Source: Candidatus Parcubacteria bacterium
Lineage (GTDB): Bacteria; Patescibacteriota; Saccharimonadia; Saccharimonadales; 2-12-FULL-41-12
DNA: 64,000 nucleotides
Reading direction: 5' to 3'
Assembly: GCA_019347895.1 (NCBI GenBank)
Contig: JAHWKM010000003.1
Location: forward strand, 771-64,770
The notes below the pieces were generated by a model. That model searched no databases and was not told the DNA's origin. It was given only the letters and a program-made list of their open reading frames with translations. Position 1 is the stretch's first letter, and every line of letters begins with the position of its first letter. Positions 1 through 56,096 of this stretch are shown here, one piece after another. The translations under genes were made by a program, and so were the position numbers.

Positions 1-442
1 CGGCAAAAGGAGATTGTTGATATTGCTGAGGATTTTGCACGAAACCAAGTCTTTCGTAGAAAGCGAGTCTCTGTAATGAGACGGGGTCGCTTTGATCGGG
101 TGGATCTGACTCAAGTACCACAGTTTTACTTTGAGCACCCAAGAAATCACCAAGGATTTCGCTCCCCAGACCCTCACCTCTTCGGTCTGCCTCTATGGCC
201 AGATGTTCAATGTATATAAAGTCTCCTAGATCCCAGTAGGACAAGCAGCCAGCGACCTCCCCTTTACTCATTACTAGCTGTAAAGAAAAGCCTTCTTTGC
301 TTAAACATTCCTTTTGTGCGGCTTCAGGACGCCTTTGGTCTATGGGGAAAGCCTCAACATAGATTTTCCAGAATTCCTTAAACTCTTCGCTCTCTGAGTC
401 ACTGACACTGAGTAGTTTTATACTCTTCGGCTCTTTTTCCAT
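1..442 (-). CDS. GNAT family N-acetyltransferase (C-terminal part runs off window start)
   Basis: Manual minus-strand translation from ATG at 442: MEKEPKSIKLLSVSDSESEEFKEFWKIYVEAFPIDQRRPEAAQKECLSKEGFSLQLVMSKGEVAGCLSYWDLGDFIYIEHLAIEADRRGEGLGSEILGDFLG... The R-x-x-G-x-G acetyl-CoA motif is present. The frame stays open to position 1. Not in supplied track. Confidence 0.6.
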   Translation of the reverse strand, partial: MEKEPKSIKLLSVSDSESEEFKEFWKIYVEAFPIDQRRPEAAQKECLSKEGFSLQLVMSKGEVAGCLSYWDLGDFIYIEHLAIEADRRGEGLGSEILGDFLGAQSKTVVLESDPPDQSDPVSLQRLAFYERLGFVQNPQQYQQSPFA

Positions 443-527
443 ACCTCAATCATAACAAAAAAACACTCTCACGTCTTTTAAGCATAAGCGGCTTGGAGGG
501 CCATCTAGGACGTAATTGCAAACGAGA

Positions 528-755
528 TTAGAAGAAGTACAGTACGTATTTCGTATTGATTGTGCAGCCAGCACCAGGCGGATCTTTTCTATTTTTAACT
601 TCATTAATTGAGTCACCGTTAATCAAATGAAGTCGAGACGTTGGAGCTGTTTCAAGCTGACAGCCATAGCTAGTAGTATACGAGTCGAGTGGTATAAAAA
701 AGCCAGCCACAAACAAGACAATTAGTATAGTTACAGAAATTATTAGTTTTTTCAT
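528..755 (-). CDS. small secreted/membrane-anchored hypothetical protein
   Basis: 75-aa ORF with N-terminal hydrophobic signal/anchor (MKKLIISVTILIVLFVAGFF). No recognisable domain. Confidence 0.4.
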   Translation of the reverse strand: MKKLIISVTILIVLFVAGFFIPLDSYTTSYGCQLETAPTSRLHLINGDSINEVKNRKDPPGAGCTINTKYVLYFF

Positions 756-834
756 TTGACTTCAGTATAACAAAAGATCTCTCAGTTGAGAGATCAAAGT
801 GCTTACGGTTTGGAGGACGCTACCGCAACTAAAA

Positions 835-1152
835 TCAAGAACGCTGAGATTTATTCCCTACTTTACTAATTATAAAATTTCCTATCAATACAATTATCGC
901 CGAAGGCAACAATAACAACCCATAACCGAGTACAAACTTACCACCCATAAACCCCTCTTTTTCATTATAAAAGTCTAGAAATCCACGATTTTCAACCACA
1001 TTTTCACCGTGACAAGGTCGTGGTGAATCCTGGGGCTGAGAAGCTACAAATTCATCGCTGCATAATTGTGCAACATCTGTAAAATATGAAACTGCTATAA
1101 GAAAAAACGGAATAAAAAGTATTAACGCAAAAAGTAGGTATTTCTTGCTCAT
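835..1152 (-). CDS. hypothetical membrane protein
   Basis: ORF 835..1179. Preferred start is MSKKYLLFALILFIPFFLIAV at 1152. Two hydrophobic segments. Confidence 0.4.
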   Translation of the reverse strand: MSKKYLLFALILFIPFFLIAVSYFTDVAQLCSDEFVASQPQDSPRPCHGENVVENRGFLDFYNEKEGFMGGKFVLGYGLLLLPSAIIVLIGNFIISKVGNKSQRS

Positions 1153-1159
1153 GAAGCTA

Positions 1160-1188
1160 CTATAACAAAAAGTCTCCAAAGGAGACCC
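1160..1188 (-). terminator. rho-independent terminator downstream of the Lys satellite element
   Basis: Minus-strand GGGTCTCC-TTT-GGAGACT followed by TTTTGTTAT. Confidence 0.5.
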
Positions 1189-1201
1189 TAATGCTTATGC
1201 T

Positions 1202-1357
1202 TGGAGGGCCAGGAGGGACTCGCCCACATTCTGCGGGCCCAGAACTTTCATACTTACGGCATAGTCGCAAATCTGAAAGATTCTCTTGCGAAATGCCCCC
1301 GGCATTTCTCACCCCCGACACCCTTTTGGCGTGTTCGGGATTCGAGTCCATTCTCCA
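1202..1357 (-). ncRNA. class-1 tRNA-satellite element (Lys-CUU type): antisense T-arm copy + sense 3' third of tRNA-Lys with ~88-nt insert in the T-loop, ends in CCA
   Basis: Minus strand reads TGGAGAATGGACTCGAATCCCGAACACGCC-AAAA-GGGTGTCGGGGGT|GAGAAATGCCGGGGGCATTTCGCAAG...GGGCCCGCAGAATGTGGG|CGAGTCCCTCCTGGCCCTCCA. The flanks match tRNA-Lys at 1401..1477. The insert is conserved in 4 other copies. Confidence 0.5.
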
Positions 1358-1405
1358 ATGAAAAGGCCCCGCACAAAGCGAGAAAGCGAGGCTTTTTCAT
1401 TGGAG
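1353..1405 (-). terminator. palindromic (bidirectional) terminator hairpin joining tRNA-Lys CCA to the satellite element
   Basis: CTCCAATGAAAA / TTTTCATTGGAG 12-bp outer inverted repeat encloses the GC stem GCCTCGC...GCGGGGC. U-tracts on both strands. Confidence 0.5.
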
Positions 1406-1477: not shown

Positions 1478-1480
1478 GGC

Positions 1481-1566
1481 TGTCTGCAAGACAGCCGGGC
1501 TGGCCCATCATTGCAAACATCTTGATTGATTTGTCTGCAAGACAGCCGGGCTGGCCCATCATTGCA
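1481..1566. repeat. 35-bp perfect direct repeat x2 upstream of tRNA-Lys (duplicated leader/promoter carrying a copy of the acceptor 5' strand)
   Basis: tgtctgcaagacagccgggctggcccatcattgca occurs at 1481-1515 and 1532-1566. On the minus strand each copy reads TGCAATGAT-GGGCCAG-CCCGGCTGTCTTGCAGACA, where GGGCCAG is the tRNA 5' acceptor strand followed by a hairpin. Confidence 0.8.
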
Positions 1567-1570
1567 GACA

Positions 1571-1810
1571 TTAAATTCTTTTGTGAAGGTTAGCTCTTAT
1601 TGCGCTGCTCCGCTTTACTTGTTTTTTACGGAATCTGGCATTTTGAAGGCCTTCATATGCTTTATAGTATATCAGTCGAAGCGGTCTTCGAAACTTTGTA
1701 GAAGTTACTTTTCCGTTGTTATGATCCGTGAAACGCTTTTTAAGATTACTTGTTGAACCGTAGTAATGCCGTCCATCTTCCCCGGAAACAAGTATATAAA
1801 AATAATACAT
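1571..1810 (-). CDS. GIY-YIG nuclease superfamily small protein
   Basis: 79 aa, MYYFYILVSGEDGRHYYGSTSNLKKRFTDHNNG, with the GIY...YIG spacing typical of the UPF0213/YhbQ-like family. Confidence 0.7.
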   Translation of the reverse strand: MYYFYILVSGEDGRHYYGSTSNLKKRFTDHNNGKVTSTKFRRPLRLIYYKAYEGLQNARFRKKQVKRSSAIRANLHKRI

Positions 1811-4512: not shown

Positions 4513-4589
4513 TGGTACCCGTGGACGGATTCGAACCGCCGACACCTGGTTCCGAAGACCAGTGCTCTAATCCGCTGAGCTACACGGGC
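4513..4589 (-). tRNA. tRNA-Arg (anticodon TCG), CCA encoded
   Basis: Reverse complement GCCCGTGTAGCTCAGCGGATTAGAGCACTGGTCTTCGGAACCAGGTGTCGGCGGTTCGAATCCGTCCACGGGTACCA. Anticodon loop is CTTCGGA. Confidence 0.9.
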
Positions 4590-4690
4590 ATAATTAACAT
4601 TATAAGCCATATGTTCGAATCCTTGGCTTGACCTACCCGTCGTTTTCATAAATGAAAACGCGGTCAGGCCCAGTCTGTTAGCCCATAATC
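4590..4690 (-). other. degenerate class-1-like remnant plus TATAAT promoter directly upstream of tRNA-Arg(UCG)
   Basis: Minus strand reads ACTGGGCCTGACCGCG-[TTTTCAT TT ATGAAAA]-CGACGGGTAGGTC-AAGCCAAGGATTCGAACATATGGCTT-ATAATGTTAATTA. It resembles the GGGCCTGC..GGTAGGTCGAATCC end of the Arg class-1 element. Confidence 0.3.
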
Positions 4691-4700
4691 ATATTTTGAA

Positions 4701-5273
4701 CTATTTATCCGTCTTGTTTTCGTCGTTTTGCTTTTCGGTTTTTGGGGCGGATAATAGCTTGGTTTCTTGGGATTTGTCGTATTTTTCTAAGGTCGTCTTT
4801 ATAACTTTTAGCATTCTCTCGGCGTGTTCACGGCTCATACCAACCTGGCTAACAGATACCGGTTTGCCGTTTTGCGACTGCATAAACTGCAGCACCATGC
4901 CGTGTTTGTTAACAGTCGCGTTCATGCTGTCAGTGTATACCACGCGGTTGTCCACCGGCAGATACATAACAACTTGCTTCATCAGCATGTCCTCGATCCC
5001 ACCAGCCAGTAAACTTTCCGGAATTGCTGTATCTTTTGGCACTGTAGCCATGGCCCGCAGCTCCAAAGCCTGTTCTTCGCTCAGCAGGAAGTGGTTGATT
5101 ATCATATCGAGCAGATTGTCATTGGGCAGAATTTTCCCGGACTCGATTTGCTTCAATTCTTTTTCATCAATCTCTAAAGTCGTAGACACCTCGTCAACCG
5201 TTTGCTGCCACTTCTCTCTAAGGCTCTTAATTTTTTCGCCTAAAACCTTGTGCGGTTGTTCACTTTTACCCAT
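4701..5273 (-). CDS. helix-turn-helix (XRE-like) domain protein
   Basis: N-terminal LGEKIKSLREKWQQTVDEVSTTLEIDEKELKQIESGK HTH pattern. The rest is unassigned. Start at MGKSEQ preferred over the 5324 start. Confidence 0.4.
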   Translation of the reverse strand: MGKSEQPHKVLGEKIKSLREKWQQTVDEVSTTLEIDEKELKQIESGKILPNDNLLDMIINHFLLSEEQALELRAMATVPKDTAIPESLLAGGIEDMLMKQVVMYLPVDNRVVYTDSMNATVNKHGMVLQFMQSQNGKPVSVSQVGMSREHAERMLKVIKTTLEKYDKSQETKLLSAPKTEKQNDENKTDK

Positions 5274-11818: not shown

Positions 11819-11974
11819 GCCCCGGTAGCTCAGCTGGATAGAGCAGGAGACTTCTAAGCTCAAGGTCGTAGGTGAGAAATGCCTTGAATGGCATTTCGCA
11901 AGGTCGGAGCGCGACGGCGCGAGACATGCCGAAAAGAATTTTTAGCAGAAAATTACTTTTGGGCGAATCCTATC
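11819..11974 (+). ncRNA. tRNA-Arg(UCU)-like sequence interrupted in the T-loop by a ~90-nt class-2 module (pseudo-tRNA or novel tRNA-scaffold RNA)
   Basis: GCCCCGGTAGCTCAGCTGGATAGAGCAGGAGACTTCTAAGCTCAAGGTCGTAGGT|GAGAAATGCCTTGAATGGCATTTCGCAAGGTCGGAGCGCGACGGCGCGAGACATGCCGAAAAGAATTTTTAGCAGAAAATTACTTTTGGG|CGAATCCTATC. T-stem GTAGG/CCTAT pairs. There is no acceptor 3' strand and the anticodon stem is weak. Confidence 0.5.
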
Positions 11975-12002
11975 TTAAACCTTACAATATAAACCGGTAC
12001 CT

Positions 12003-12079: not shown

Positions 12080-12117
12080 ATATAAAAGCTGGTCCTTGTG
12101 ACCGGTTTTTATATTGG
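12077..12117 (+). terminator. palindromic terminator hairpin after tRNA-Arg(UCU)
   Basis: CCAATATAAAA-GCTGGTC-CTTGT-GACCGGT-TTTTATATTGG. Confidence 0.5.
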
Positions 12118-12264
12118 ATATCTCGGGGAATCAAACCACCGACCAAAAGGTCGGGGTGAAAAATGCCTGTGGCATTTTGCAAGGAAACCTACTCTTCAAA
12201 ACTTGTTTTGAGAGACGTAGTTTCGGGCCTGCCGAAGGTAGGTCGAATCCCTCCCGGGGTACCA
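12115..12264 (+). ncRNA. class-1 tRNA-satellite element (Arg-UCU type), ends in CCA
   Basis: TGGATATCTCGGGGAATCAAACCACCGACC-AAAA-GGTCGGGGT|GAAAAATGCCTGTGGCATTTTGCAAGGAAACC...AGTTTCGGGCCTGCCGAAGGTAGG|TCGAATCCCTCCCGGGGTACCA. Confidence 0.5.
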
Positions 12265-12266
12265 AC

Positions 12267-12295
12267 TTGACAACTACTTAGCCTTATGCTATTAT
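12267..12295 (+). promoter_or_regulatory. strong sigma70-type promoter (TTGACA-17-TATTAT)
   Basis: TTGACA at 12267-12272, 17-nt spacer, TATTAT at 12290-12295. The predicted TSS coincides with the ATG at 12302. Confidence 0.6.
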
Positions 12296-12301
12296 GTAGT
12301 T

Positions 12302-12443
12302 ATGTTTGAACGAAAAGAAGATACGCATCTGCCCCTTTCTTGATCTTGAACCAAAAGTAGATACACCACCGCCCCCTCCTCTCCCGGAAAAAGAAGACAC
12401 GCCACCTTCAACACCTGGTACGCCTGAAGGAGTGTGGCTTTAG
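12302..12443 (+). pseudogene. leaderless proline-rich small ORF with tandem 33-39 nt repeats, broken by a 1-nt frame change in a C-run
   Basis: The ATG frame gives MFERKEDTHLPLS*. The shifted frame continues LDLEPKVDTPPPPPLPEKEDTPPSTPGTPEGVWL*. The repeat peptide E-x-K-x-D-T-P-P appears in both frames. Removing one C at ~12331-12334 yields one 50-aa ORF. Confidence 0.3.
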
Positions 12444-12448
12444 CCACG

Positions 12449-12469
12449 CGATATCCTACCCGGGTACCA
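12449..12469 (+). other. isolated tRNA-Arg-like 3' fragment (T-loop to CCA)
   Basis: CGATATCCTACCCGGGTACCA versus the genuine CGAATCCCTCCCGGGGTACCA. Preceded by hairpin GTGTGGC-TTTA-GCCACGC. Confidence 0.4.
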
Positions 12470-12574
12470 AATGATTACCTAGACTGCGCGTATTTGATAC
12501 TAATCCCTATCCTACCTTTGCCCATGAATAGCGAGATTTGTTACTGAATTTAAGGTTAGTTTTTATATAATTGC

Positions 12575-17046: not shown

Positions 17047-18081
17047 TTATTCTATAAATTTGTTAGTGTAGAGCGCGTCGAAATTGACAGTGTCAACCGG
17101 TTTGCCGCTAACGTCTAAAACCGCGTCATTGTCCAGCATGAACTGCGGGTAATTCCGCCAATAACTTTTTTCCTGGATTCCCCAGGTCTTGCCGGGTTTT
17201 TGATATTTGCCGCTCAAATACTCCTGGCTGGCATAAACCAAGCCCTCGTCATCAAAAGTACCTTCAGACGCTTCAGCTATTAAAATCCGGGCGGCTTCGT
17301 CTGGATTGTTGCGGGCGAATTCATAGCCGCGAACGGTTGCTTTCATAAAGCGTTTCAACAAATCCTCTTTTTTGGAAATAGTGTCAGGCGAACTGATAAT
17401 GTTTGGCGTGTAATAGTCCGGTATGCCGTGTTCTATGACGGGAAATGTATCTATGGCAAAACCGCTTCTCTCGGCTTGGATTTTTTCCCAGCCGTCAAAA
17501 ATCCAAACAAAATCTACCTTGCCGGATTCCAGCGCTTGAAGCGGCGCAGTAGAAACTGTTACATTTTTGAAATTGCCTTCGCCGCCGTCGTTTTTTATAG
17601 CGGCCTTCATGACCGGTTCCTCATAGGGCATACCGTAACCGCCGTAGATTTTGCCGTCCAGCTGGTCTAGCGAAGTTATGTTATCGCTTTTCCTGGTAGC
17701 GATGGATGAGGTGTTGGTGGTGATTATAGCCGCGATTGACGTCACCTGCGAATCACTGGCCGCGTTGGCTACCACCCCTTCCGTGAAACCAATACCCGTA
17801 TCGGCCTTGCCGGCGGATACTAAAGCATCAGAAGAAGCACTGGTGGAGTACGGCAAAAGCTTTAGCTCGACTCCTTCTTCTGCGTAATAACCTTGGTTTT
17901 TAGCCACATAAAGCCCGCTGTGGTTGGTATTCGGCGTCCAATCAAGCGCCAGCGTCACTTCCTCTAGCGGCTTTTTTGCTGTCTGTTCTTTATCATTATT
18001 AACATTCTTGGCTATTAAAAAAGCGCTTAGCCCAGCCACCAAGACCAGCGCGGCAATCGCAATTAATTTTATATTCTTCAC
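17047..18081 (-). CDS. NMT1/THI5-like substrate-binding protein (ThiY-like, HMP/thiamine precursor uptake)
   Basis: N-terminal anchor, then LALDWTPNTNHSGLYVAKNQGYYAEEG, typical of the NMT1/THI5 SBP family. First gene after the TPP riboswitch. Confidence 0.75.
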   Translation of the reverse strand: MKNIKLIAIAALVLVAGLSAFLIAKNVNNDKEQTAKKPLEEVTLALDWTPNTNHSGLYVAKNQGYYAEEGVELKLLPYSTSASSDALVSAGKADTGIGFTEGVVANAASDSQVTSIAAIITTNTSSIATRKSDNITSLDQLDGKIYGGYGMPYEEPVMKAAIKNDGGEGNFKNVTVSTAPLQALESGKVDFVWIFDGWEKIQAERSGFAIDTFPVIEHGIPDYYTPNIISSPDTISKKEDLLKRFMKATVRGYEFARNNPDEAARILIAEASEGTFDDEGLVYASQEYLSGKYQKPGKTWGIQEKSYWRNYPQFMLDNDAVLDVSGKPVDTVNFDALYTNKFIE

Positions 18082-18087
18082 GTTAAT

Positions 18088-18178
18088 TCTCCCTTCGACG
18101 GCATTACCCGTACAGGTTCATTGGGTTTATCCAGGTGTCAGCTGGAATTTCTCAGCCCGGCTATCCCGAGCTCCCCAT
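18088..18178 (-). promoter_or_regulatory. TPP (THI-box) riboswitch
   Basis: Minus strand reads GGGGAGCTCGGGATAGCCGGGCTGAGAAATTCCAGCTGACACCTGGATAAACCCAATGAACCTGTACGGGTAATGCCGTCGAAGGGAG. It contains the CTGAGA, ACCC..TGAACCTG and GGTAATGCC..GAAGGGA cores. TATAAT lies at 18197-18202 (minus). Confidence 0.8.
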
Positions 18179-18207
18179 TTATATTTGGTAACGATAATTA
18201 TAACAAC

Positions 18208-27830: not shown

Positions 27831-27976
27831 TGGTCGGGGTGAGAGGACTTGCCCACGTTCCGCGGGCCCGAAACTTCATCTTTGAAAACAAGTTTTCAAG
27901 AGAAGATTTCCTTGCGACCCGCCCTGGCGGGTCTCACCTCCGACCTTTTTAGCGTCGGAGATTCAAATCTCGACCA
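27831..27976 (-). ncRNA. class-1 tRNA-satellite element (Pro-UGG type), ends in CCA
   Basis: Minus strand reads TGGTCGAGATTTGAATCTCCGACGCT-AAAA-AGGTCGGAGGT|GAGACCCGCCAGGGCGGGTCGCAAGGAAATC...AGTTTCGGGCCCGCGGAACGTGGG|CAAGTCCTCTCACCCCGACCA. Confidence 0.5.
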
Positions 27977-28009
27977 AAATAAAAACTGCCGAAAAGGCAG
28001 TTCATATTT
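27977..28009 (-). terminator. palindromic terminator hairpin after tRNA-Pro
   Basis: Minus strand reads (GACC)AAAATATGAA-CTGCC-TTTTC-GGCAG-TTTTTATTTT(GGTC). Confidence 0.5.
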
Positions 28010-52316: not shown

Positions 52317-53405
52317 CTAAGTGTTAGCAGGTAATTCAACAGGTGGTCGCAAGTGGCTACGGTCATAGCGCGGTTCAGCATCCGTAAGGCCAGCGCCGCC
52401 GCTAGCAAAGAAATTAGCAATGGCTATTTCGCCTGCAATAGCAGCAGCCTCGCGCTTATAAAAACGCCTTTCCCTGAAGTGAGATGAGCGTGCAAGTACC
52501 CTATAACCATCCATCACTGTCTGTTGAGGAGCACCATAATCATCAAGGTCATATACAGCAGCTTTAAGTAGCTCTTTTTCAGGCCCCTTAACTTTATCTT
52601 TCTGAGGTAAAATTCTTAATATTCCCGACTGAGCCTCTACAATGTGTTTAGCTAATTCATCAACCTCGGCTGTATGGCGGCTTGGCTCGCCTTGCGCCAT
52701 AACACTTTTGAGACGTGTTTTTAGTAAGTCACTAGCAGCCTTAAAAGTTACCACTGCATTATCTGGTTCACCTTTACGTTCATAGGCAGCCCCTAGCTCA
52801 ATTGCGCCCACACCTGCGGCGTGAAGATCACCACGTTCACCAAGGGAATTTACAGCGGTAGTCCATGCGCTTACTTCATTCCCTTCAATAGCTTCGCGAC
52901 CTTTTTGAGCTATGCTTTCTAAATCTTGCTTATCGTCATAAGGATTATCAAATGCTGCTTGCATAGCAAGATGCATTTGTCTCAGACTACCCTTTAACGC
53001 ATCCATGGCAACATCACGCTCAGTTTCATCACCTTGCGGTATGCGTTTCGGCTGCTCAAGTGGGTCTTTCATGCTCATAGCTCTCACCACACAGCCCTGG
53101 TTATACATAAAAGCTCCGCCACGCCATGGTATATCAAGCGCCATCCTAGCTGATATGACCGCCTCGGCTGACTTTTCATCGACAAGTGAACGGGCGGCAT
53201 CAATTCTTGGCTCCTGAAATGCCTTACGCCCAGCATCATATTCTCGGACCCATTGTTCCTCTGCCCTAGGATTATGGTTAATCTCAACGTGTGCGATGTG
53301 AGGAGTGGCACCCTTGCCGGTCAGCCAATGACCTGGATTGCCCCGCTCAATCCAGCTTTCTACATTTAATGGTGGTCCAAAATATGGTGACGGCTCGGCT
53401 GCCAT
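52317..53405 (-). CDS. hypothetical protein
   Basis: 362-aa ORF with no motif assignable by eye. Confidence 0.45.
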   Translation of the reverse strand: MAAEPSPYFGPPLNVESWIERGNPGHWLTGKGATPHIAHVEINHNPRAEEQWVREYDAGRKAFQEPRIDAARSLVDEKSAEAVISARMALDIPWRGGAFMYNQGCVVRAMSMKDPLEQPKRIPQGDETERDVAMDALKGSLRQMHLAMQAAFDNPYDDKQDLESIAQKGREAIEGNEVSAWTTAVNSLGERGDLHAAGVGAIELGAAYERKGEPDNAVVTFKAASDLLKTRLKSVMAQGEPSRHTAEVDELAKHIVEAQSGILRILPQKDKVKGPEKELLKAAVYDLDDYGAPQQTVMDGYRVLARSSHFRERRFYKREAAAIAGEIAIANFFASGGAGLTDAEPRYDRSHLRPPVELPANT

Positions 53406-53590
53406 AATAACTCCTAGTTAGTTGTCATTACTGTAAAACTTAGTTTTACTACAAGCAAGCATGAGCAAAATTAAAACGACGTTATCTAGCATATCTAAAG
53501 TCGGAGTTGAGGATGATAATGATTCCTAGTAACACTTATACACTTGTTAAACAAATACCATTAAGAAGTTAGTGCTCGAGGTGTTTTCAT

Positions 53591-53881
53591 TGGAGGGTCC
53601 GGTGGGACTCGGCCACATCCTGCGGTCACTTTTCGCGACCCCGCTAGTTACATACTTTGAACGAGTTCAAAATCTGAAACGTAGCCTTACAAAAAGTCCC
53701 CAACTTTTCTCAACTGGAACTTTCATACTTACAGCATGCTGAAAATCTGAAAGGTTCCCTTGAGAACGTCCACTGGACGTTCTCACCCCCGACACCCTTT
53801 TGGCGTGCCGTGTTTTCAAATCTCACCAGTGAGATTCTCCAAACAAAAAACCCAGCTCTAAGCTGAGTTCTTTGTTTGGAG
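53591..53881 (-). ncRNA. class-1 tRNA-satellite element, long variant (Lys type) with duplicated middle module, ends in CCA
   Basis: Minus strand reads ...CGGCACGCC-AAAA-GGGTGTCGGGGGT|GAGAACGTCCAGTGGACGTTCTCAAGGGAACC-TTTCAGATTTTCAGCATGCTGTAAGTATGAAAG...GTTTCAGATTTTGAACTCGTTCAAAGTATG...GACCGCAGGATGTGGC|CGAGTCCCACCGGACCCTCCA. Confidence 0.45.
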
Positions 53882-54114
53882 TGTCCGGTGGGACTCGCCT
53901 CGCAAGAAAAAGAAAAAATACTTTTTCTAATGCGACCCCAAAGGCCTCTGGCCTTTCTGGGGCAAGGGGCCGGGTGAGAACTGCCCGGTGGCAGTTCGCA
54001 GAGCCGGAAGCGCGACGGCGCGCTGAGGCGGGCTCGCGAAATCCGCCAGCAGGCGGATATTTGTGAGTTGCCGAGTAGGCAATCCCGTTCGAGTCCCAAC
54101 GGAAACATCCTCCA
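53877..54114 (+). ncRNA. class-2-like tRNA-satellite element on the plus strand, ends in T-arm-like hairpin and CCA
   Basis: TGGAGTGTCCGGTGGGACTCG (antisense Lys 3' end)...CCCCAAAGGCC-TCT-GGCCTTTCTGGGG...GGGT|GAGAACTGCCCGGTGGCAGTTCGCAGAGCCGGAAGCGCGACGGCGCGCT...CCGTTCGAGTCCCAACGGAAACATCCTCCA. Palindromic hairpins flank it at 53837-53881 and 54110-54151. Confidence 0.35.
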
Positions 54115-54210
54115 AACGAAAAACTCCCATTCGGGAGTTCATAGTTTGGAGAAGCAAGGTGCAAACTATTGCAACTGAACTACAAAAGAACCACAATCTT
54201 TTTATTGCAA

Positions 54211-54732
54211 CTAGGGGTTGACTTTGTAAACCAGTCTGACCCGTCCCAAGCTAAGTTGCTTCACACTGAGCAGCGCCATACCGAACTCAAAATTATCAAA
54301 AGCTAAAAATGGTCTACCTTTACCAATAATATAGGGTGTTACCGTAAGTTGAACTTGATTGACGAGCTTTCGTTTCGCAAAAGATGAATTGAGTATTCCA
54401 CCACCAATAAGGAACAGTGTTTTAACGCCAACCTTTTCCAAAAACTCAATGGCTTCTTCTGGACTATGCACGAGAGTGTAGCCTTTTGGTGTTTGAGAAT
54501 CATTGTTGCGAGTGACAATGAGCTTGTGGTCTACCTGCACATTATCAAAGTTCTCGTTCTCATATTTTTCAGTGACTTGTTCGTATGTTTCACGACCCAT
54601 AACGATATTGTTGTGCTCTTTTGCTTCCGCAACAAAGTCGTCCCAGCCGTCACTTGGCAACCAGTCTTCATCACCATTCTCACGAGCAATAAAGCCGTTT
54701 GGCGAAATAACCATATCCAAAATTACTTTCAT
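54211..54732 (-). CDS. dihydrofolate reductase-like protein (RibD C-terminal domain family)
   Basis: MKVILDMVISPNGFIA...NIVMGRETYE...LFLIGGGILNSSF pattern. Start at 54732 preferred over 54795. Confidence 0.7.
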   Translation of the reverse strand: MKVILDMVISPNGFIARENGDEDWLPSDGWDDFVAEAKEHNNIVMGRETYEQVTEKYENENFDNVQVDHKLIVTRNNDSQTPKGYTLVHSPEEAIEFLEKVGVKTLFLIGGGILNSSFAKRKLVNQVQLTVTPYIIGKGRPFLAFDNFEFGMALLSVKQLSLGRVRLVYKVNP

Positions 54733-54809
54733 GTGTGTATCATAACAAAAAGAGCCATTGCTGACTCTTAGTTCAGACTTTCCCGCTAGGGTCATCTGTA
54801 AGGTCGAAT

Positions 54810-54976
54810 TGGAGGGTCCGGTGGGACTCGGCCTACCTCCGGCAGGCCCGGAAGTTCACTATTGCAAGCACAGCTTGCATCGGAACGTTCCCTTACGACA
54901 TGCCACTGGCATGTCTCACCCCGACACCCTTTTGGCGTGTCGCAGATTCGAGAACCACAAAACATTAATCCTCCAT
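54810..54976 (-). ncRNA. class-1 tRNA-satellite element (Lys-UUU type), ends in CCA
   Basis: Minus strand reads ATGGAGGATTAATGTTTTGTGGTTCTCGAATCTGCGACACGCC-AAAA-GGGTGTCGGGGT|GAGACATGCCAGTGGCATGTCGTAAGGGAACG...TGCAAGC-TGT-GCTTGCA...CGGGCCTGCCGGAGGTAGGC|CGAGTCCCACCGGACCCTCCA. Confidence 0.5.
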
Positions 54977-55011
54977 AGCTCCGCAAAAAGCGGAGCGACG
55001 GAGAATGGAGG
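54970..55011 (-). terminator. palindromic terminator hairpin after tRNA-Lys(UUU)
   Basis: Minus strand reads CCTCCAT-TCTCCGTC-GCTCCGC-TTTTT-GCGGAGC-T-ATGGAGG. Confidence 0.5.
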
Positions 55012-55082
55012 GTCCGGTGGGACTCGAACCCACGACACCCTGCTTAAAAGGCAGGTGCTCTAACCGGCTGAGCTACGGACCC
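55006..55082 (-). tRNA. tRNA-Lys (anticodon TTT), CCA encoded
   Basis: Reverse complement GGGTCCGTAGCTCAGCCGGTTAGAGCACCTGCCTTTTAAGCAGGGTGTCGTGGGTTCGAGTCCCACCGGACCCTCCA. Confidence 0.9.
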
Positions 55083-55089
55083 TTGTTTA

Positions 55090-55321
55090 ATATTGTAAAT
55101 GATCACGGGTAAATCCACGACCCAAAGATAATTTTCTGGTGAAAATTTCTTTCGGCATGCCTCGCTCCGTCGCGCTCCGGCCTTGCGAACTGCCATCAGG
55201 CAGTTCTCACCCTGCTTAAAAGGCAGGTGCTCCCATGTCATCCGACATGGCCGTATCGTATGATACGGTAACCGGCTGACCTGTCCGCCGAAGCCTTGGC
55301 GTAGGCGGGAGCTACGGACCC
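55090..55321 (-). ncRNA. hairpin-decorated tRNA-Lys(UUU)-like RNA: three perfect hairpins inserted in the D-arm plus a class-2 module after the anticodon arm
   Basis: Minus strand reads GGGTCCGTAGCT[CCCGCCTACGCCAAGGCTTCGGCGGACAGGT]CAGCCGGTTA[CCGTATCATACGATACGGCCATGTCGGATGACATGG]GAGCACCTGCCTTTTAAGCAGGGT|GAGAACTGCCTGATGGCAGTTCGCAAGGCCGGAGCGCGACGGAGCGAGGCATGCCGAAAGAAATTTTCACCAGAAAATTATCTTTGGG|TCGTGGATTTACCCGTGATC. The non-inserted 47 nt are identical to the 5' 47 nt of the adjacent tRNA-Lys. Confidence 0.5.
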
Positions 55322-55500
55322 GCGTCGGAACTTACGGCAAAGTCTCGTTTTGCCTTTCGGCAAAAGCTTCGACCTACGCCTATGTTCCTCCTTTCAAAAT
55401 CACAAACAGTCGCTTCACTCCTTGGTTTGTGATTTTGTAGCAAAAACCTTGTGGTTTTTGCAGGATTGCTTCTTTTCACTGAAAATCAGAGAAATTAACT
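55322..55500 (-). ncRNA. hairpin-rich leader upstream of the decorated tRNA-Lys-like RNA
   Basis: Minus-strand hairpins: GCAAAAACC-ACAA-GGTTTTTGC (55440-55461), a 13-bp stem CAAAATCACAAAC/GTTTGTGATTTTG (55395-55437) and TTTTGCC-GAAA-GGCAAAA (~55347-55365). It also has GACTTTGCCGTAAGT and GGCGTAGGTCGAAGC, related to class-1 motifs. Confidence 0.35.
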
Positions 55501-55506
55501 TCTTAA

Positions 55507-55534
55507 ATTATCGTTATTTTAGCTAAAAAGTCAA
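55507..55534 (-). promoter_or_regulatory. putative promoter (TTGACT-16-GATAAT) for the Lys satellite/tRNA transcription unit
   Basis: Minus strand reads TTGACTttttagctaaaataacGATAAT. Confidence 0.4.
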
Positions 55535-55610
55535 TCGCGCTTAATATAAGATTTGCAAGATATAAGCAAAAGCTTTACTCTATTTACAGAGTAAGACAAA
55601 AGGATAGTTC

Positions 55611-56096
55611 ATGTTTAAAAAATTGTTTAGTATTTTCAAAAGTAAAAAAAATAAGGAAAATTCAGGCGAGCCAGCCTCTGTAAAACCCGCTGCTACAGGC
55701 GCGGCAGTAGGTGCTGCTCAGCCTGGGGTAAATCCGGCTGAACCCTCAACTCCTGCACAAGGCATCACGCCGGAGGATATATCCGATTCCAGCCCCAGCC
55801 AGACAAACGCCTATTCTGCGCCTGCGCAATCCGCGGCCCCGCCGGCACAAGAACAACCGGCGCCGTCAGCCACAGTTGCACAAGCTCCAAGTTCCCCGAC
55901 AGCTGATGATTTTAGCCAGCAGCCGTCCCCTCCTCCGCCAGCCGGCCCCGACACAGAAGAGCCTTTCAACGAATCGCCCGCTCCCACTCCCGCGCCTGGA
56001 GAAAGTGTTAGTCCGGACACCACTCAACAGACAGAGCAGCCGTCAGCTGAGAACGAACAACCCAAGCCGGAAGACAATACCCCGAACTTCGGCTAG
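55611..56096 (+). CDS. Pro/Ala/Ser/Gln-rich low-complexity protein
   Basis: 161-aa ORF with basic N-terminus MFKKLFSIFKSKKNKE, then a P/A/S/Q-rich tract. Coding status uncertain. Confidence 0.4.
   Translation: MFKKLFSIFKSKKNKENSGEPASVKPAATGAAVGAAQPGVNPAEPSTPAQGITPEDISDSSPSQTNAYSAPAQSAAPPAQEQPAPSATVAQAPSSPTADDFSQQPSPPPPAGPDTEEPFNESPAPTPAPGESVSPDTTQQTEQPSAENEQPKPEDNTPNFG

What the first reader, a model, noticed from the sequence alone, without database searches (positions are those of the whole stretch)
53591..54165. Back-to-back Lys-type satellite elements on opposite strands sharing a palindromic hairpin, flanking a DHFR-like gene
A long class-1 copy (minus, 53591-53881) has its middle module TTTCAGATTT-hairpin-AGTATG duplicated in tandem. 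It abuts a class-2-like copy on the plus strand (53877-54114).

Both start from the same palindromic hairpin, CTCCAAACAAA...TTTGTTTGGAG (53837-53881). On either strand that hairpin reads as CCA-hairpin-TGG. Both elements end in a tRNA-like ...TCCA. The plus copy ends CCGTTCGAGTCCCAACGG...CCTCCA and is followed by a second such hairpin (54110-54151).

Together with 54810-55534, these elements bracket the RibD_C/DHFR-like gene (54211-54732). About 1.4 kb of a 1.95-kb stretch is therefore tRNA-derived structured sequence. Four track ORFs across this region are almost certainly artefacts.
Basis: seen in the sequence. Interest (0 to 1): 0.7.

Follow-up and report, generated by a model that had tools for sequence, protein, structure and literature searches.

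The report
New structured insertion modules beside tRNA genes
The flagged stretch holds two diverged copies of an apparently undescribed family of ~100-base, three-hairpin modules that candidate-phyla-radiation (CPR) bacteria carry inside partial copies of tRNA and 5S rRNA genes, next to the intact genes, and that behave like small mobile elements.

Summary
53591-53881(-) is a variant "class-1" element with an internally duplicated hairpin. 53877-54114(+) contains a "class-2" module (53972-54069; 71.9 bits, E 3e-18, against a model trained without it). The two share the palindrome 53837-53881.

They are not simply tRNA-derived. Each is a chimera: a conserved, non-tRNA, three-hairpin module (~95-100 nt) sits in the T arm of a partial tRNA-Lys(UUU) copy. 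The window has eight such modules beside Lys, Arg and Pro tRNAs.

Class 1 was found almost only in Saccharibacteria (66 copies in 49 loci). It lies 63-83 nt after, or 30-46 nt before, a same-strand tRNA. Class 2 is abundant in CPR-rich metagenomes. It sits at T-loop, D-loop and position-26 sites of partial tRNA copies, in a partial 5S copy, nested in other modules, and in non-tRNA repeats.

Both folds show strong covariation. No Rfam family, literature, phage or plasmid match was found.

Best reading: a structure-dependent, non-autonomous, mobile or duplicative element that folds on the sense strand, probably as RNA. The plus-strand copy is a unit inverted between two CCA-hairpin-TGG palindromes. 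The RibD_C gene occupies a variable slot, which holds NUDIX in a syntenic relative. Function and mobility mechanism are unknown.

The parts
53591..53836 (-). Element C: a variant class-1 unit. Reading 5' to 3' on the minus strand: small hairpin 53836-53819; P1 hairpin ~53810-53790 (antisense/sense T-stem with a GCCAAAAGG loop); P2 53787-53759; P3 ~53758-53717; a second P3-like copy 53688-53648; variant P4 GGGGTCGCG-AAAA-GTGACC 53644-53622; copy of the tRNA-Lys(UUU) T-loop, acceptor 3' strand and CCA 53614-53591.
   Evidence: R1 covariance model 40.3 bits, E 7e-8, over 53675-53790. Tandem repeat D3. Fold z-score -4.35. The 3' 20 nt are identical to the tRNA.
53837..53881 (.). Palindrome CTCCAAACAAAAAACCCAGCT-CTA-AGCTGAGTTCTTTGTTTGGAG. 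It reads CCA-hairpin-TGG on both strands. On the minus strand the hairpin is followed by TTTTTTG, like a terminator. It is the junction shared by C and D.
   Evidence: Inverted repeat I3, 21-nt arms, 90% complementary. Weak plus-strand terminator call at 53853-53865.
53877..54114 (+). Element D: a class-2 unit on the plus strand. Antisense tRNA-Lys 3' end 53877-53897; A/T-rich hairpin ~53900-53934; hairpin 53936-53963; class-2 module 53972-54069; hairpin ~54066-54085; diverged T-loop/acceptor-like tail ending CCTCCA 54088-54114.
   Evidence: R2 model 71.9 bits, E 2.8e-18; this copy was not in the training set. The opposite strand scores at most 7.6 bits with R1. 88% identical over 40 nt to the class-2 copy at 55176-55215 (I1). 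Fold z-score -6.93.
54110..54151 (.). Second CTCCAAAC...GTTTGGAG palindrome. It is the intrinsic terminator of the RibD_C gene on the minus strand and the proposed partner of 53837-53881 in the inversion of D.
   Evidence: Terminator-like site 54140-54121(-). I12 arms 53835-53851 and 54137-54153, 82% complementary.
54211..54732 (-). RibD_C / DHFR-like gene, lying in a slot between units.
   Evidence: Pfam RibD_C E 9.9e-17, DHFR_1 E 1.9e-7. The syntenic locus L058 has a NUDIX gene in this slot.
54810..55005 (-). Element B: a canonical downstream-type class-1 unit directly after tRNA-Lys(UUU). Hairpin 55005-54969; degenerate antisense T arm; P1; module 54923-54824; tRNA 3' end copy 54833-54810.
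   Evidence: R1 106.2 bits, E 2e-23. Tail matches the tRNA 20/20.
55006..55082 (-). Intact tRNA-Lys(UUU), the gene whose parts are copied in A, B, C and D.
   Evidence: ARAGORN. Rfam tRNA 73.9 bits.
55083..55335 (-). Element A: an upstream-type class-2 unit. Partial tRNA-Lys copy 55335-55215 (acceptor 5' strand, D arm with three extra hairpins, anticodon arm); class-2 module 55212-55119; then a TACAAT-containing spacer before the real tRNA.
   Evidence: R2 89.6 bits. D7 and D12 repeats shared with the tRNA. Sigma-70-like promoter 55534-55507(-), 10 of 12 matches, upstream.
1202..1400 (-). Canonical downstream-type class-1 unit after tRNA-Lys(CUU); module 1216-1316.
   Evidence: R1 74.2 bits; sequence.
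11826..12002 (+). Upstream-type class-2 unit before tRNA-Arg(UCU). Partial tRNA-Arg copy followed by module 11870-11965.
   Evidence: R2 92.6 bits; sequence.
12080..12264 (+). Canonical downstream-type class-1 unit after tRNA-Arg(UCU); module 12152-12250.
   Evidence: R1 106.5 bits; tail matches the tRNA 20/20.
27831..28009 (-). Canonical downstream-type class-1 unit after tRNA-Pro(UGG); module 27845-27941.
   Evidence: R1 93.3 bits; tail matches the tRNA 20/20.

Best explanation
**What it is.** The stretch holds two members of one superfamily of small structured insertion modules found in CPR/Patescibacteria.

- A module is about 95-100 nt. It starts (G)GUGAGA and forms three consecutive hairpins.
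- Class 1: P2, then CGCAAGG, then a long variable P3, then P4 (GGCCYGCN-GRA-N'GURGGUC).
- Class 2: P2, then CGCAAGG, then an almost invariant CC-GGA-GCGC-GACG-GCGC-GA-GG hairpin, then a long P4' that ends GUGAC.
- The module always lies in sense orientation at a loop-coding position of a partial copy of a stable-RNA gene. Here that position is between the T-stem 5' strand and the T-loop of tRNA-Lys(UUU).
- The partial copy lies next to the intact gene, in one of two forms. The downstream form reads: tRNA, terminator hairpin, antisense 3' end, P1, module, T-loop, acceptor 3' strand with CCA, own terminator. The upstream form reads: 5' two-thirds of the tRNA, module, T-loop, antisense T-loop, -10 box, tRNA.

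**Shown**
- The folds are conserved through many compensatory changes, and only on the tRNA-sense strand.
- Module lineages are decoupled from tRNA identity and from upstream/downstream type.
- Copies are tandem, nested, and present or absent at equivalent tRNA sites.
- No recombinase, reverse transcriptase or TnpB-type gene is consistently linked.

**Inferred**
- The family is a non-autonomous mobile or duplicative element. Its spread or retention depends on its sense-strand fold, most likely as RNA co-transcribed with the tRNA; folded sense-strand DNA is the less likely alternative.
- It survives only where an intact gene copy remains.
- The palindromic junctions are fold-back or recombination scars. 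These junctions are the CCA-hairpin-TGG, the antisense-T-stem/sense-T-stem pair, and the T-loop joined to an antisense T-loop.

**This locus.** Reading the minus strand: upstream-type unit A, the tRNA, unit B, the RibD_C slot, unit D, unit C. D was flipped by recombination between the two CTCCAAAC...GTTTGGAG palindromes. That flip produces the back-to-back arrangement.
For: **Class-1 fold**
- 48 sequences gave 35 predicted pairs, 27 of them with compensatory changes.
- 96.6% of cells are paired, against 80.1% in shuffles (0 of 500 shuffles reach the observed value) and 27-44% with slid partners.

**Class-2 fold.** 48 sequences gave 25 pairs, 18 with compensatory changes.

**Strand.** The sense strand scores 74-106 bits and the antisense strand 10-17 bits. 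Two G.U pairs in P4 are conserved, one of them invariant.

**Assignment of the two elements.** D scores 71.9 bits against a model that excluded it. C scores 40.3 bits.

**Geometry.** 66 class-1 hits in 49 loci. Thirty start 47-83 nt after a same-strand tRNA (all but one at 63-83 nt). Fifteen end 30-63 nt before one (all but one at 30-46 nt). In 22 of 34 downstream units the tail copies the last 20 nt of the adjacent tRNA exactly.

**Signs of mobility**
- Nearest-neighbour modules usually sit at a different tRNA type, in a different genome, or in the other configuration.
- Tandem arrays occur in L036, L056 and L024.
- Nested copies occur in L099 and L104.
- Class 2 sits at T-loop, D-loop and position-26 sites and in a partial 5S copy, each time upstream of the intact gene and replacing 2 nt.
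- tRNA-Val has an empty site in L053, filled sites in seven other loci, and a third variant in L031.

**Distribution.** Class 1 is found in 48 genuine loci, 45 labelled Saccharibacteria.

**Inversion.** D is flanked by inverted copies of the Lys 3' end (I10) and by two similar palindromes (I3, I12). In L058 the homologous A/T-rich segment lies on the tRNA strand.

**Transcription hints.** There is a promoter-like site upstream of A. Canonical terminators follow both the tRNA and most downstream units.
Against: - There is no expression data, so RNA and sense-strand single-stranded DNA cannot be told apart.
- A strong terminator separates most tRNAs from the downstream unit, and no conserved promoter was seen in front of it.
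- No mobilising enzyme was identified. IS110 transposases are the commonest neighbour, but only in 5 of 120 loci and in both orientations.
- High sequence conservation across very diverse CPR would also fit a host function.
- The nearest-neighbour analysis is weakened by overall similarity of 75-90%.
- P4 covariation is partly shaped by the search pattern (Y and R were required at the two covarying positions). P2 and P3 were unconstrained.
- The inversion is inferred from one metagenome-assembled contig. An assembly flip between 45-nt palindromes cannot be excluded.
Confidence: 0.55

Rival explanations
1. Host-beneficial non-coding RNA, not a mobile element. The module, together with the tRNA-derived closing helix, T-loop and NCCA end, is a stable small RNA released from tRNA transcripts. 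It would act by mimicking a tRNA end, for example as a decoy or platform for RNase P, the CCA-adding enzyme, T-arm modification enzymes or tRNA-targeting toxins, or it would bind a protein through the invariant class-2 hairpin. Copies at different tRNAs would arise by ordinary duplication and be kept by selection.
For: - Strong covariation and invariant junction nucleotides.
- Always sense to, and tightly spaced from, highly transcribed tRNA genes.
- Exact copies of the tRNA 3' end with CCA in 22 of 34 units, each followed by its own terminator.
- Predicted closing helix between the 5' antisense segment and the 3' tail.
- The partial tRNA portions decay, gaining extra hairpins in A and in L070, while the module stays intact.
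Against: - Copy number and position vary between related genomes.
- Modules are nested in modules and arranged in tandem arrays.
- Class 2 occurs in many non-tRNA contexts, about two thirds of the loci sampled.
- Upstream-type units lack the acceptor 3' strand and CCA altogether.
- The 5' antisense segment is poorly conserved.
Confidence: 0.22
2. Scars of tRNA-targeting integrative elements. The repeated tRNA 3' ends are attL/attR duplications left by integrase-mediated insertion of small islands or cassettes (RibD_C, NUDIX, cupin, GNAT). The module is the conserved arm of the attachment site, or an attC-like folded recombination site of a tRNA-anchored cassette array.
For: - Direct repeats of the tRNA 3' end bracket single genes: 53589-53614 and 54808-54833 around RibD_C, NUDIX in L058, cupin in L055.
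- In the window, 2-1179 holds a GNAT gene and two small ORFs, each followed by a degenerate module tail plus ..CCTCCA.
- Cargo differs at a syntenic site.
- Two large serine recombinases occur among 110 neighbouring ORFs.
Against: - Most units carry no cargo and sit in conserved housekeeping neighbourhoods without any integrase.
- Upstream-type units, D-loop and position-26 insertions and the 5S case do not fit integration at a tRNA 3' end.
- Covariation with G.U pairs on one strand is not expected of double-stranded arm sites. Integron attC sites fold on the bottom strand, whereas here the gene-sense strand folds.
- No hits in viral contigs, phages or plasmids.
Confidence: 0.12
3. True introns or split tRNA genes. 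The module would be spliced out of a functional tRNA, or the upstream- and downstream-type halves would be joined in trans.
For: - Insertion at loop positions of the RNA fold, which is intron-like target choice.
- At tRNA-Arg(UCU) and tRNA-Lys(UUU) in the window, an upstream 5' part and a downstream 3' part flank the real gene.
Against: - In-silico removal of 130 modules, with 0-2 nt added back, restores a complete tRNA in only one doubtful case.
- An intact tRNA of the same identity sits next to every tRNA-linked unit examined, where the flank was available.
- The partial copies are degenerate.
- There is no group I or group II intron signature.
Confidence: 0.03
4. Nothing special: chance hairpins, real small ORFs, or a misassembled repeat region.
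For: The source is a metagenome-assembled contig. ORFs of 50-132 aa overlap the region.
Against: - Hundreds of homologous copies exist in independent assemblies, with covariation.
- Fold z-scores are -4.4 to -7.
- The ORFs have no Pfam match and overlap structured elements on both strands.
Confidence: 0.03

Closest known systems
Archaeal tRNA introns at non-canonical positions and their transposition between tRNA genes, together with split or permuted tRNA genes (from my own knowledge, e.g. in Thermoproteales and Nanoarchaeum; no paper was read for this)
   Same: Short related insertions found at D-loop, T-loop and other loop positions of many different tRNA genes. This implies movement between tRNA genes and target choice set by the RNA fold.
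   Different: The archaeal introns interrupt complete, functional genes and are removed at bulge-helix-bulge motifs. Here the host copy is always partial, an intact gene lies alongside, removing the module does not restore a tRNA, and the organisms are bacteria.
Group I introns in Patescibacteria tRNA genes (PMC13011429)
   Same: The same phylum, the same kind of host gene, and a structured insertion missed by standard annotation.
   Different: Group I introns are over 200 nt, match Rfam Intron_gpI, sit in the anticodon loop of intact genes and self-splice. These modules are ~100 nt, have no Rfam match and sit in partial copies.
REP/REPIN elements, MITEs and palindrome-associated IS200/IS605 derivatives
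   Same: Short, abundant, non-autonomous intergenic repeats whose hairpins are maintained by compensatory change. They are often at gene 3' ends and often serve as targets of IS110-family elements.
   Different: There are no fixed terminal inverted repeats or target-site duplications. The flanks are copies of the local RNA gene. The core is a three-hairpin junction with invariant linkers. Orientation is always sense to the host RNA gene. No RAYT, TnpA or TnpB is linked.
Integron gene cassettes with attC sites, and tRNA-linked genomic islands such as tycheposons
   Same: Single-gene slots (DHFR-like, GNAT, NUDIX, cupin) separated by structured sites. The tRNA 3' end is repeated at slot borders. 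Content varies at a fixed chromosomal anchor.
   Different: No integron-type or other integrase lies nearby. Most units are empty. The folded strand is the gene-sense strand. Upstream-type and non-tRNA copies do not fit.
tRNA-like domains in bacterial small RNAs (YrlA/Y RNA, tmRNA) and sRNAs derived from tRNA 3' external transcribed spacers
   Same: A T-loop, acceptor strand and CCA are fused to unrelated structured RNA. The units lie in tRNA transcription units.
   Different: YrlA scores 21 bits against a gathering threshold of 69, and the match covers the real tRNA rather than the module. There is no Ro/Rsr or SmpB context. There are many copies per genome, with tRNA-specific ends.

Membership tests
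Any Rfam 15 family | The covariance model reaches its gathering score over the element | tested here: not met
   At gathering threshold the window yields only tRNAs and a TPP riboswitch. A search of 53300-55700 at E<=10 gives nothing credible over A, B, C or D. Ten class-2 loci yield only tRNA, rRNA and one group I intron elsewhere.
Functional tRNA gene | Complete cloverleaf: acceptor stem, D arm, anticodon arm and T arm | tested here: not met
   ARAGORN calls only 55006-55082 in this region. C and D lack the 5' two-thirds of a tRNA. A lacks the T-stem 3' strand and the acceptor 3' strand.
tRNA intron (group I, group II or bulge-helix-bulge type) | The insertion interrupts an otherwise complete gene, so that removing it restores the tRNA | tested here: not met
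   129 of 130 modules fail to restore a tRNA after in-silico removal with 0-2 nt added back.
tRNA intron (group I, group II or bulge-helix-bulge type) | Insertion at loop or junction positions of the RNA fold, with related copies in different tRNA genes | tested here: met
   Insertions are seen in the T-loop, the D-loop and at position ~26, across many tRNA identities.
Integrase-mediated island at a tRNA gene | Direct repeat of the tRNA 3' end at both borders of the inserted DNA | tested here: met
   Identical 26-nt repeats at 53589-53614 and 54808-54833, and 88% identity to the tRNA.
Integrase-mediated island at a tRNA gene | An integrase or recombinase gene inside or next to the island | tested here: not met
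   None lies between 50.8 and 58.5 kb. Only 2 of 110 and 0 of 149 neighbouring ORFs are serine recombinases, and no tyrosine recombinase appears among the 25 most frequent families listed in either scan.
Integron cassette array / attC | Array of single promoter-less ORFs, each followed by a folded recombination site, beside intI and attI; the bottom strand folds | tested here: inconclusive
   Single-gene slots with degenerate module tails exist. However, no intI is present, the slots carry -10-like boxes, and it is the gene-sense strand that folds.
MITE | Family-wide terminal inverted repeats plus a short target-site duplication | tested here: not met
   The inverted ends are copies of the local tRNA 3' end and differ between copies. 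No target-site duplication is seen; instead 2 nt of the host gene are replaced.
IS110/IS1111 bridge RNA | Non-coding RNA encoded at a fixed end of an element that carries a DEDD/Tnp recombinase | tested here: not met
   An IS110 transposase lies next to the module in only 5 of 120 class-2 loci, on either side and in either orientation. There is none in the window region.
IS200/IS605 derivative or TnpB/IscB omega RNA | Linked TnpA, TnpB or IscB in at least some copies | tested here: not met
   These families are not among the 25 most frequent families listed for the 259 neighbouring ORFs scanned. Rarer single occurrences would not have been displayed.
Intrinsic terminator (the two palindromes) | G+C-rich stem followed by a T run on the transcribed strand | tested here: met
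   54140-54121(-) is called by the scan. 53881-53837(-) is followed by TTTTTTG. Equivalent hairpins follow most tRNAs and most downstream units.

The most novel reading that the evidence does not exclude
The modules are a new class of small, RNA-level mobile elements. They would be intron-like or ribozyme-like RNAs that invade exposed loops of stable RNAs (tRNA T-loop, D-loop and position 26; 5S rRNA; and one another). They would become fixed in DNA as partial, fold-back-scarred retro-copies or repair copies beside the intact gene. A variant of the same idea treats the module plus the CCA-hairpin-TGG palindrome as the recombination site of a tRNA-anchored, integron-like cassette system.
Probability: 0.2. 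Interest if true: 0.9.

Novelty: categorically new. Interest (0 to 1): 0.8.

Why it matters
CPR/Patescibacteria have very small genomes, yet this 64-kb window spends well over a kilobase on eight copies of these modules, and metagenomes hold at least hundreds more.

- A conserved ~100-nt RNA or DNA fold that repeatedly lands at loop positions of tRNA and 5S genes and is retained only beside an intact copy resembles no mobile element, intron or ncRNA class that I could match.
- It could reveal a new mobility mechanism, or a new tRNA-linked RNA function, in a phylum where almost no RNA biology is known.
- It explains spurious ORF calls and contig breaks next to CPR tRNA genes. Several modules lie at contig ends.
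- It gives two ready covariance models for annotation.
- It marks tRNA-proximal slots where accessory genes (DHFR-like, NUDIX, GNAT, cupin) are exchanged.

Tried and rejected
- **Rfam.** Gathering and E<=10 searches gave no family. The weak YrlA, SprD, sbcD and RAGATH-32 hits are noise or reflect the real tRNA.
- **First viral-contig pattern** (AAAAGG..GGTGARA..YNYAAGRRAA). All 17 hits are chance matches in coding DNA.
- **Module 3' motif in viral contigs:** 0 hits. **blastn against INPHARED phages and PLSDB plasmids:** no match. A phage or plasmid origin is therefore not supported.
- **Synteny through the 362-aa ORF at 52317-53405.** Its homologues (43-58% identity) lie in unrelated contexts with no tRNA-Lys or module nearby, so they were of no use for an empty-site comparison. 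An exact look-up of the RibD_C protein found nothing.
- **Linked-enzyme search.** Pfam scans of 110 and 149 neighbouring ORFs showed no recurrent recombinase, reverse transcriptase or TnpB. IS110 was followed up and judged a co-target rather than a partner. The small GIY-YIG ORF recurs only once, in L038.
- **Intron or split-tRNA idea:** rejected by in-silico removal.
- **Hammerhead-like reading of GUGAGA...GCAAG.** Considered by eye and dropped because the core does not fit.
- **Conserved promoter between the tRNA terminator and downstream units:** none found by eye.
- **GC skew as a test of replication-linked orientation:** uninformative.
- **Literature.** Six full-text searches found no description. 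One search failed on syntax.
Full report
**1. The observation**

The region was read on both strands. The only real tRNA here is tRNA-Lys(UUU) at 55006-55082(-).

- Its 3' end recurs. TCCGGTGGGACTCG occurs five times between 53.6 and 55.0 kb, against 0.25 expected by chance.
- A 26-nt block is identical at 53589-53614 and 54808-54833 (D1).
- The minus-strand element 53591-53881 ends in the last 20 nt of the tRNA. It carries a 41-nt segment twice, at 53648-53688 and 53721-53761 (D3).
- The palindrome 53837-53881 (I3) and a similar one at 54110-54151 read CCA-hairpin-TGG on either strand.
- The gene between the element groups is RibD_C/DHFR-like.
- Five ORFs overlapping the elements have no Pfam family.

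Fold z-scores are -4.35 and -6.93.

**2. The same architecture elsewhere in the window**

After tRNA-Lys(CUU), tRNA-Arg(UCU), tRNA-Pro(UGG) and tRNA-Lys(UUU) comes the same series:
- a terminator-like palindrome that includes the CCA;
- a degenerate antisense copy of the tRNA 3' end;
- a hairpin (P1) made of the antisense and sense T-stem 5' strand;
- GGUGAGA, a hairpin, CGCAAGG, a long hairpin, then GGGCCYGCNGAANGURGG;
- a sense copy of that tRNA's own T-loop, acceptor 3' strand and CCA.

Upstream of tRNA-Arg(UCU) and tRNA-Lys(UUU) lies a second kind of unit. It has the 5' two-thirds of the tRNA, then GGUGAGA-hairpin-CGCAAGG-YCGGAGCGCGACGGNGCGAG..., then a -10-like box and the real tRNA.

**3. 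Class 1 is a conserved structured module of Saccharibacteria**

- A gap-free pattern from the 3' part of the module (about 2 chance hits expected, by my own estimate) found 58 loci in 185,579 species genomes. Ten were chance hits in coding DNA. Of the 48 genuine loci, 45 are labelled Saccharibacteria, Saccharimonadia or Saccharimonadales.
- Forty-eight modules of 97-113 nt (mostly 99-102), plus one 83-nt copy with a shortened P3, were aligned.
- They fold into three hairpins with 35 pairs, 27 of which show compensatory changes.
- 96.6% of cells are paired, against 80.1% in shuffles (0 of 500 reach this) and 27-44% with slid partners.
- P2 and P3 were not constrained by the search pattern. P4 was partly constrained.
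- A covariance model (R1) scores the four canonical window copies at 74-106 bits and their antisense strands at 10-17 bits. Element C scores 40 bits.
- In the 49 loci searched, R1 finds 66 copies. Thirty start 47-83 nt after a same-strand tRNA (all but one at 63-83 nt). Fifteen end 30-63 nt before one (all but one at 30-46 nt). Some tRNAs have both.
- In 22 of 34 downstream units the tail equals the last 20 nt of the adjacent tRNA.
- Both the tRNA and the unit are usually followed by a canonical terminator hairpin.

**4. Class 2 is much wider, and it shows what the family does**

Judging by the contig names I recognise, these are mostly groundwater, lake and sediment samples.

- The ~95-nt module folds into a variable P2, an almost invariant CC-GGA-GCGC-GACG-GCGC-GA-GG hairpin and a long P4'. 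Eighteen of 25 pairs show compensatory changes.
- The variant P4 of element C (GGGGUCGCG...GUGACC) is the base of the class-2 P4', so the two classes are related.
- A model built from these sequences plus the two obvious window copies (R2) scores the plus-strand element D (53972-54069), which was not in the training set, at 71.9 bits, E 2.8e-18.

Reading the metagenome copies shows the module in several settings:
- in the T-loop (L162, L173);
- in the D-loop (L111, L178, L197);
- at the D-stem/anticodon-stem junction (L080, L092, L097, L107) of partial tRNA copies just upstream of the intact tRNA;
- in a partial 5S rRNA copy upstream of the intact 5S gene (L164);
- nested in other modules (L099, L104);
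- in tandem (L081, L167, L177, L184).

In every case that I mapped, two host nucleotides are replaced. About one third of 60 loci have a same-strand tRNA within about 270 nt (most within 200). The rest lie in other hairpin-rich repeats.

**5. What it is not**

- It matches no Rfam family.
- It is absent from viral contigs, phage records and plasmids.
- It is not an intron of a working gene. Removing 130 modules in silico restores a tRNA only once, and that case is doubtful.
- No recombinase, reverse transcriptase, TnpA or TnpB is consistently nearby.
- IS110 transposases flank the module in 5 of 120 loci, on either side and in either orientation. This looks like shared targeting of repeats rather than partnership.
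- Six literature searches found nothing. The nearest paper describes group I introns in the anticodon loops of Patescibacteria tRNA genes (PMC13011429).

**6. Behaviour**

Module lineages do not follow tRNA identity, genome, or upstream/downstream type. For example, the best matches pair Glu with Val (86%), Ala with Arg (89%), and upstream units with downstream units. Distinct P3 sequence subtypes recur at different tRNAs.

Equivalent sites differ between genomes:
- tRNA-Val is followed directly by terminator, promoter and gene in L053;
- it is followed by a class-1 unit in seven other loci;
- it is followed by a third variant in L031.

Within the Gly-Arg-His tRNA cluster, the module sits before Gly, before Arg, after Arg or after His, depending on the genome. 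The partial tRNA parts decay and gain extra hairpins, while the module stays intact.

Tandem, nested, polymorphic copies, conserved by structure and lacking a gene of their own, are the signature of a non-autonomous mobile or duplicative element.

Three features point to action as RNA, or less likely as folded sense-strand DNA:
- the orientation is always sense to the host RNA gene;
- the targets are loop positions of the RNA fold;
- the G.U pairs are strand-specific.

The junctions are near-perfect palindromes: CCA-hairpin-TGG, antisense/sense T-stem, and T-loop joined to antisense T-loop with zero spacer, as in TCGATTCC|GGAATCGA. I interpret these, by inference only, as fold-back or recombination scars.

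**7. This locus**

Read on the minus strand, the order is:
1. promoter-like site 55534-55507;
2. upstream-type class-2 unit A;
3. tRNA-Lys(UUU);
4. class-1 unit B;
5. terminator, TTTTGTTATGAT box and the RibD_C gene;
6. palindrome 54151-54110;
7. unit D, in reverse orientation;
8. palindrome 53881-53837;
9. unit C.

D is bounded by inverted copies of the Lys 3' end (I10) and by the two similar palindromes (I12). Flipping it would give an ordinary head-to-tail array. In L058 the segment homologous to D's 5' part lies on the tRNA strand. I therefore read the back-to-back arrangement as an inversion between the palindromes. An assembly flip cannot be excluded.

L058 is syntenic with the window on the tRNA's upstream side, sharing a DUF192 homologue (tblastn) and a similarly placed membrane-protein ORF. 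After tRNA-Lys(UUU) plus module, however, it carries a NUDIX gene followed by half a module and the Lys 3' end.

Similar single-gene slots occur in L055 (cupin) and in the window at 2-1179 (a GNAT gene and two small ORFs). Each ends in a degenerate module tail plus ..CCTCCA. So the "cargo" idea is reasonable, although most units elsewhere are empty.

**8. Verdict**

The finding is real. It is the local, rearranged face of a large, apparently undescribed family.

- Firmly shown: the folds, their distribution, their geometry, and the assignment of both elements.
- Inferred: mobility, RNA-level action, the inversion, and the status of RibD_C as cargo.
- Unknown: the function and the enzyme or chemistry behind the insertions.

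Noticed in passing
window 1478-1810 (-): A 79-aa GIY-YIG ORF (1574-1810) lies directly upstream of tRNA-Lys(CUU). It is separated from the tRNA by two tandem ~50-nt hairpin repeats (GTCTGCAATGATGGGCCAGCCCGGCTGTCTTGCAGAC) that contain the tRNA's acceptor 5' strand. A 44%-identical GIY-YIG ORF sits in the same position before a module-bearing tRNA-Ala in L038 (3782-3937).
   Followed up: partly
window 2-1201 (-): Three single-gene slots lie downstream of the tRNA-Lys(CUU) unit: a 114-aa membrane ORF, a 75-aa secreted-looking ORF and a GNAT acetyltransferase. Each is preceded by a terminator plus TTTTGTTAT(A/G). The first two ORFs are each followed by a degenerate module tail plus ..CCTCCA (at about 815 and 497); the GNAT gene runs off the window start. 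A motif AGCATAAGC / GCTTATGCT follows the CCA in several loci (window 1201 and 489, L035, L055).
   Followed up: partly
window 12265-12470 (+): After the tRNA-Arg(UCU) class-1 unit there is a short stretch that may hold a small ORF (read by eye, not checked). It is followed by another fragment of the tRNA-Arg 3' end (ATCCTACCCGGGTACCAA, about 12452-12469), suggesting the same slot structure.
   Followed up: no
window 4630-4710 (-): A weak class-2 model hit (17 bits, E 0.007) lies immediately upstream of tRNA-Arg(UCG) at 4513-4589. It may be a decayed upstream-type unit.
   Followed up: no
L164 551-644 and 683-788; also L168: A class-2 module lies inside a partial 5S rRNA copy just upstream of the intact 5S gene, at the end of an rRNA operon. 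The family is therefore not restricted to tRNA genes.
   Followed up: partly
L099 71-300; L104 2152-2339; L081; L167: Modules are nested within modules (class 1 inside the P4' of class 2 in L099). Class-2 and class-1 modules also occur in direct tandem.
   Followed up: partly
L120 449-1531, L170 396-1391, L143, L172, L199: IS110-family (DEDD) transposase genes lie within about 90-250 nt of class-2 modules, on either side and in either orientation. These insertion sequences may target the same repeat.
   Followed up: partly
L026, L035, L060 (units after tRNA-Leu(CAA)): These class-1 units end in ..GGCCYGCGGYACCA, which is not the 3' end of the adjacent tRNA-Leu. That tail pairs with GUGCUG just upstream of the module and is conserved in three genomes.
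   Followed up: no
L031 7680-7860 (+): A third element type lies after tRNA-Val. It has the same overall layout and the CCAGUGG hairpin loop but lacks the GUGAGA and CGCAAGG motifs. Its GGACTCGAACGGGATTGCC segment also occurs in the window at 54085-54109 (reverse complement) and in L021.
   Followed up: no
window 55611-56096 (+): A 161-aa ORF rich in Pro, Ala, Ser and Gln, with no Pfam match, lies between the tRNA-Lys(UUU) cluster and the conserved membrane-protein/DUF192 genes. It is absent from the syntenic L058. It could be real or spurious.
   Followed up: no
whole window: The source protein KY385_01225 is deposited as "Candidatus Parcubacteria bacterium". However, the class-1 modules and the synteny with L058 and L021 point to Saccharibacteria. 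Three module-bearing contigs in the genome collection are also labelled otherwise (L018 Nevskiaceae, L044 Limnocylindria, L031 "bacterium") and may be misbinned.
   Followed up: no
window 18071-18187 (-): A TPP riboswitch scores just above the Rfam gathering threshold (56.2 bits against 54.3).
   Followed up: no
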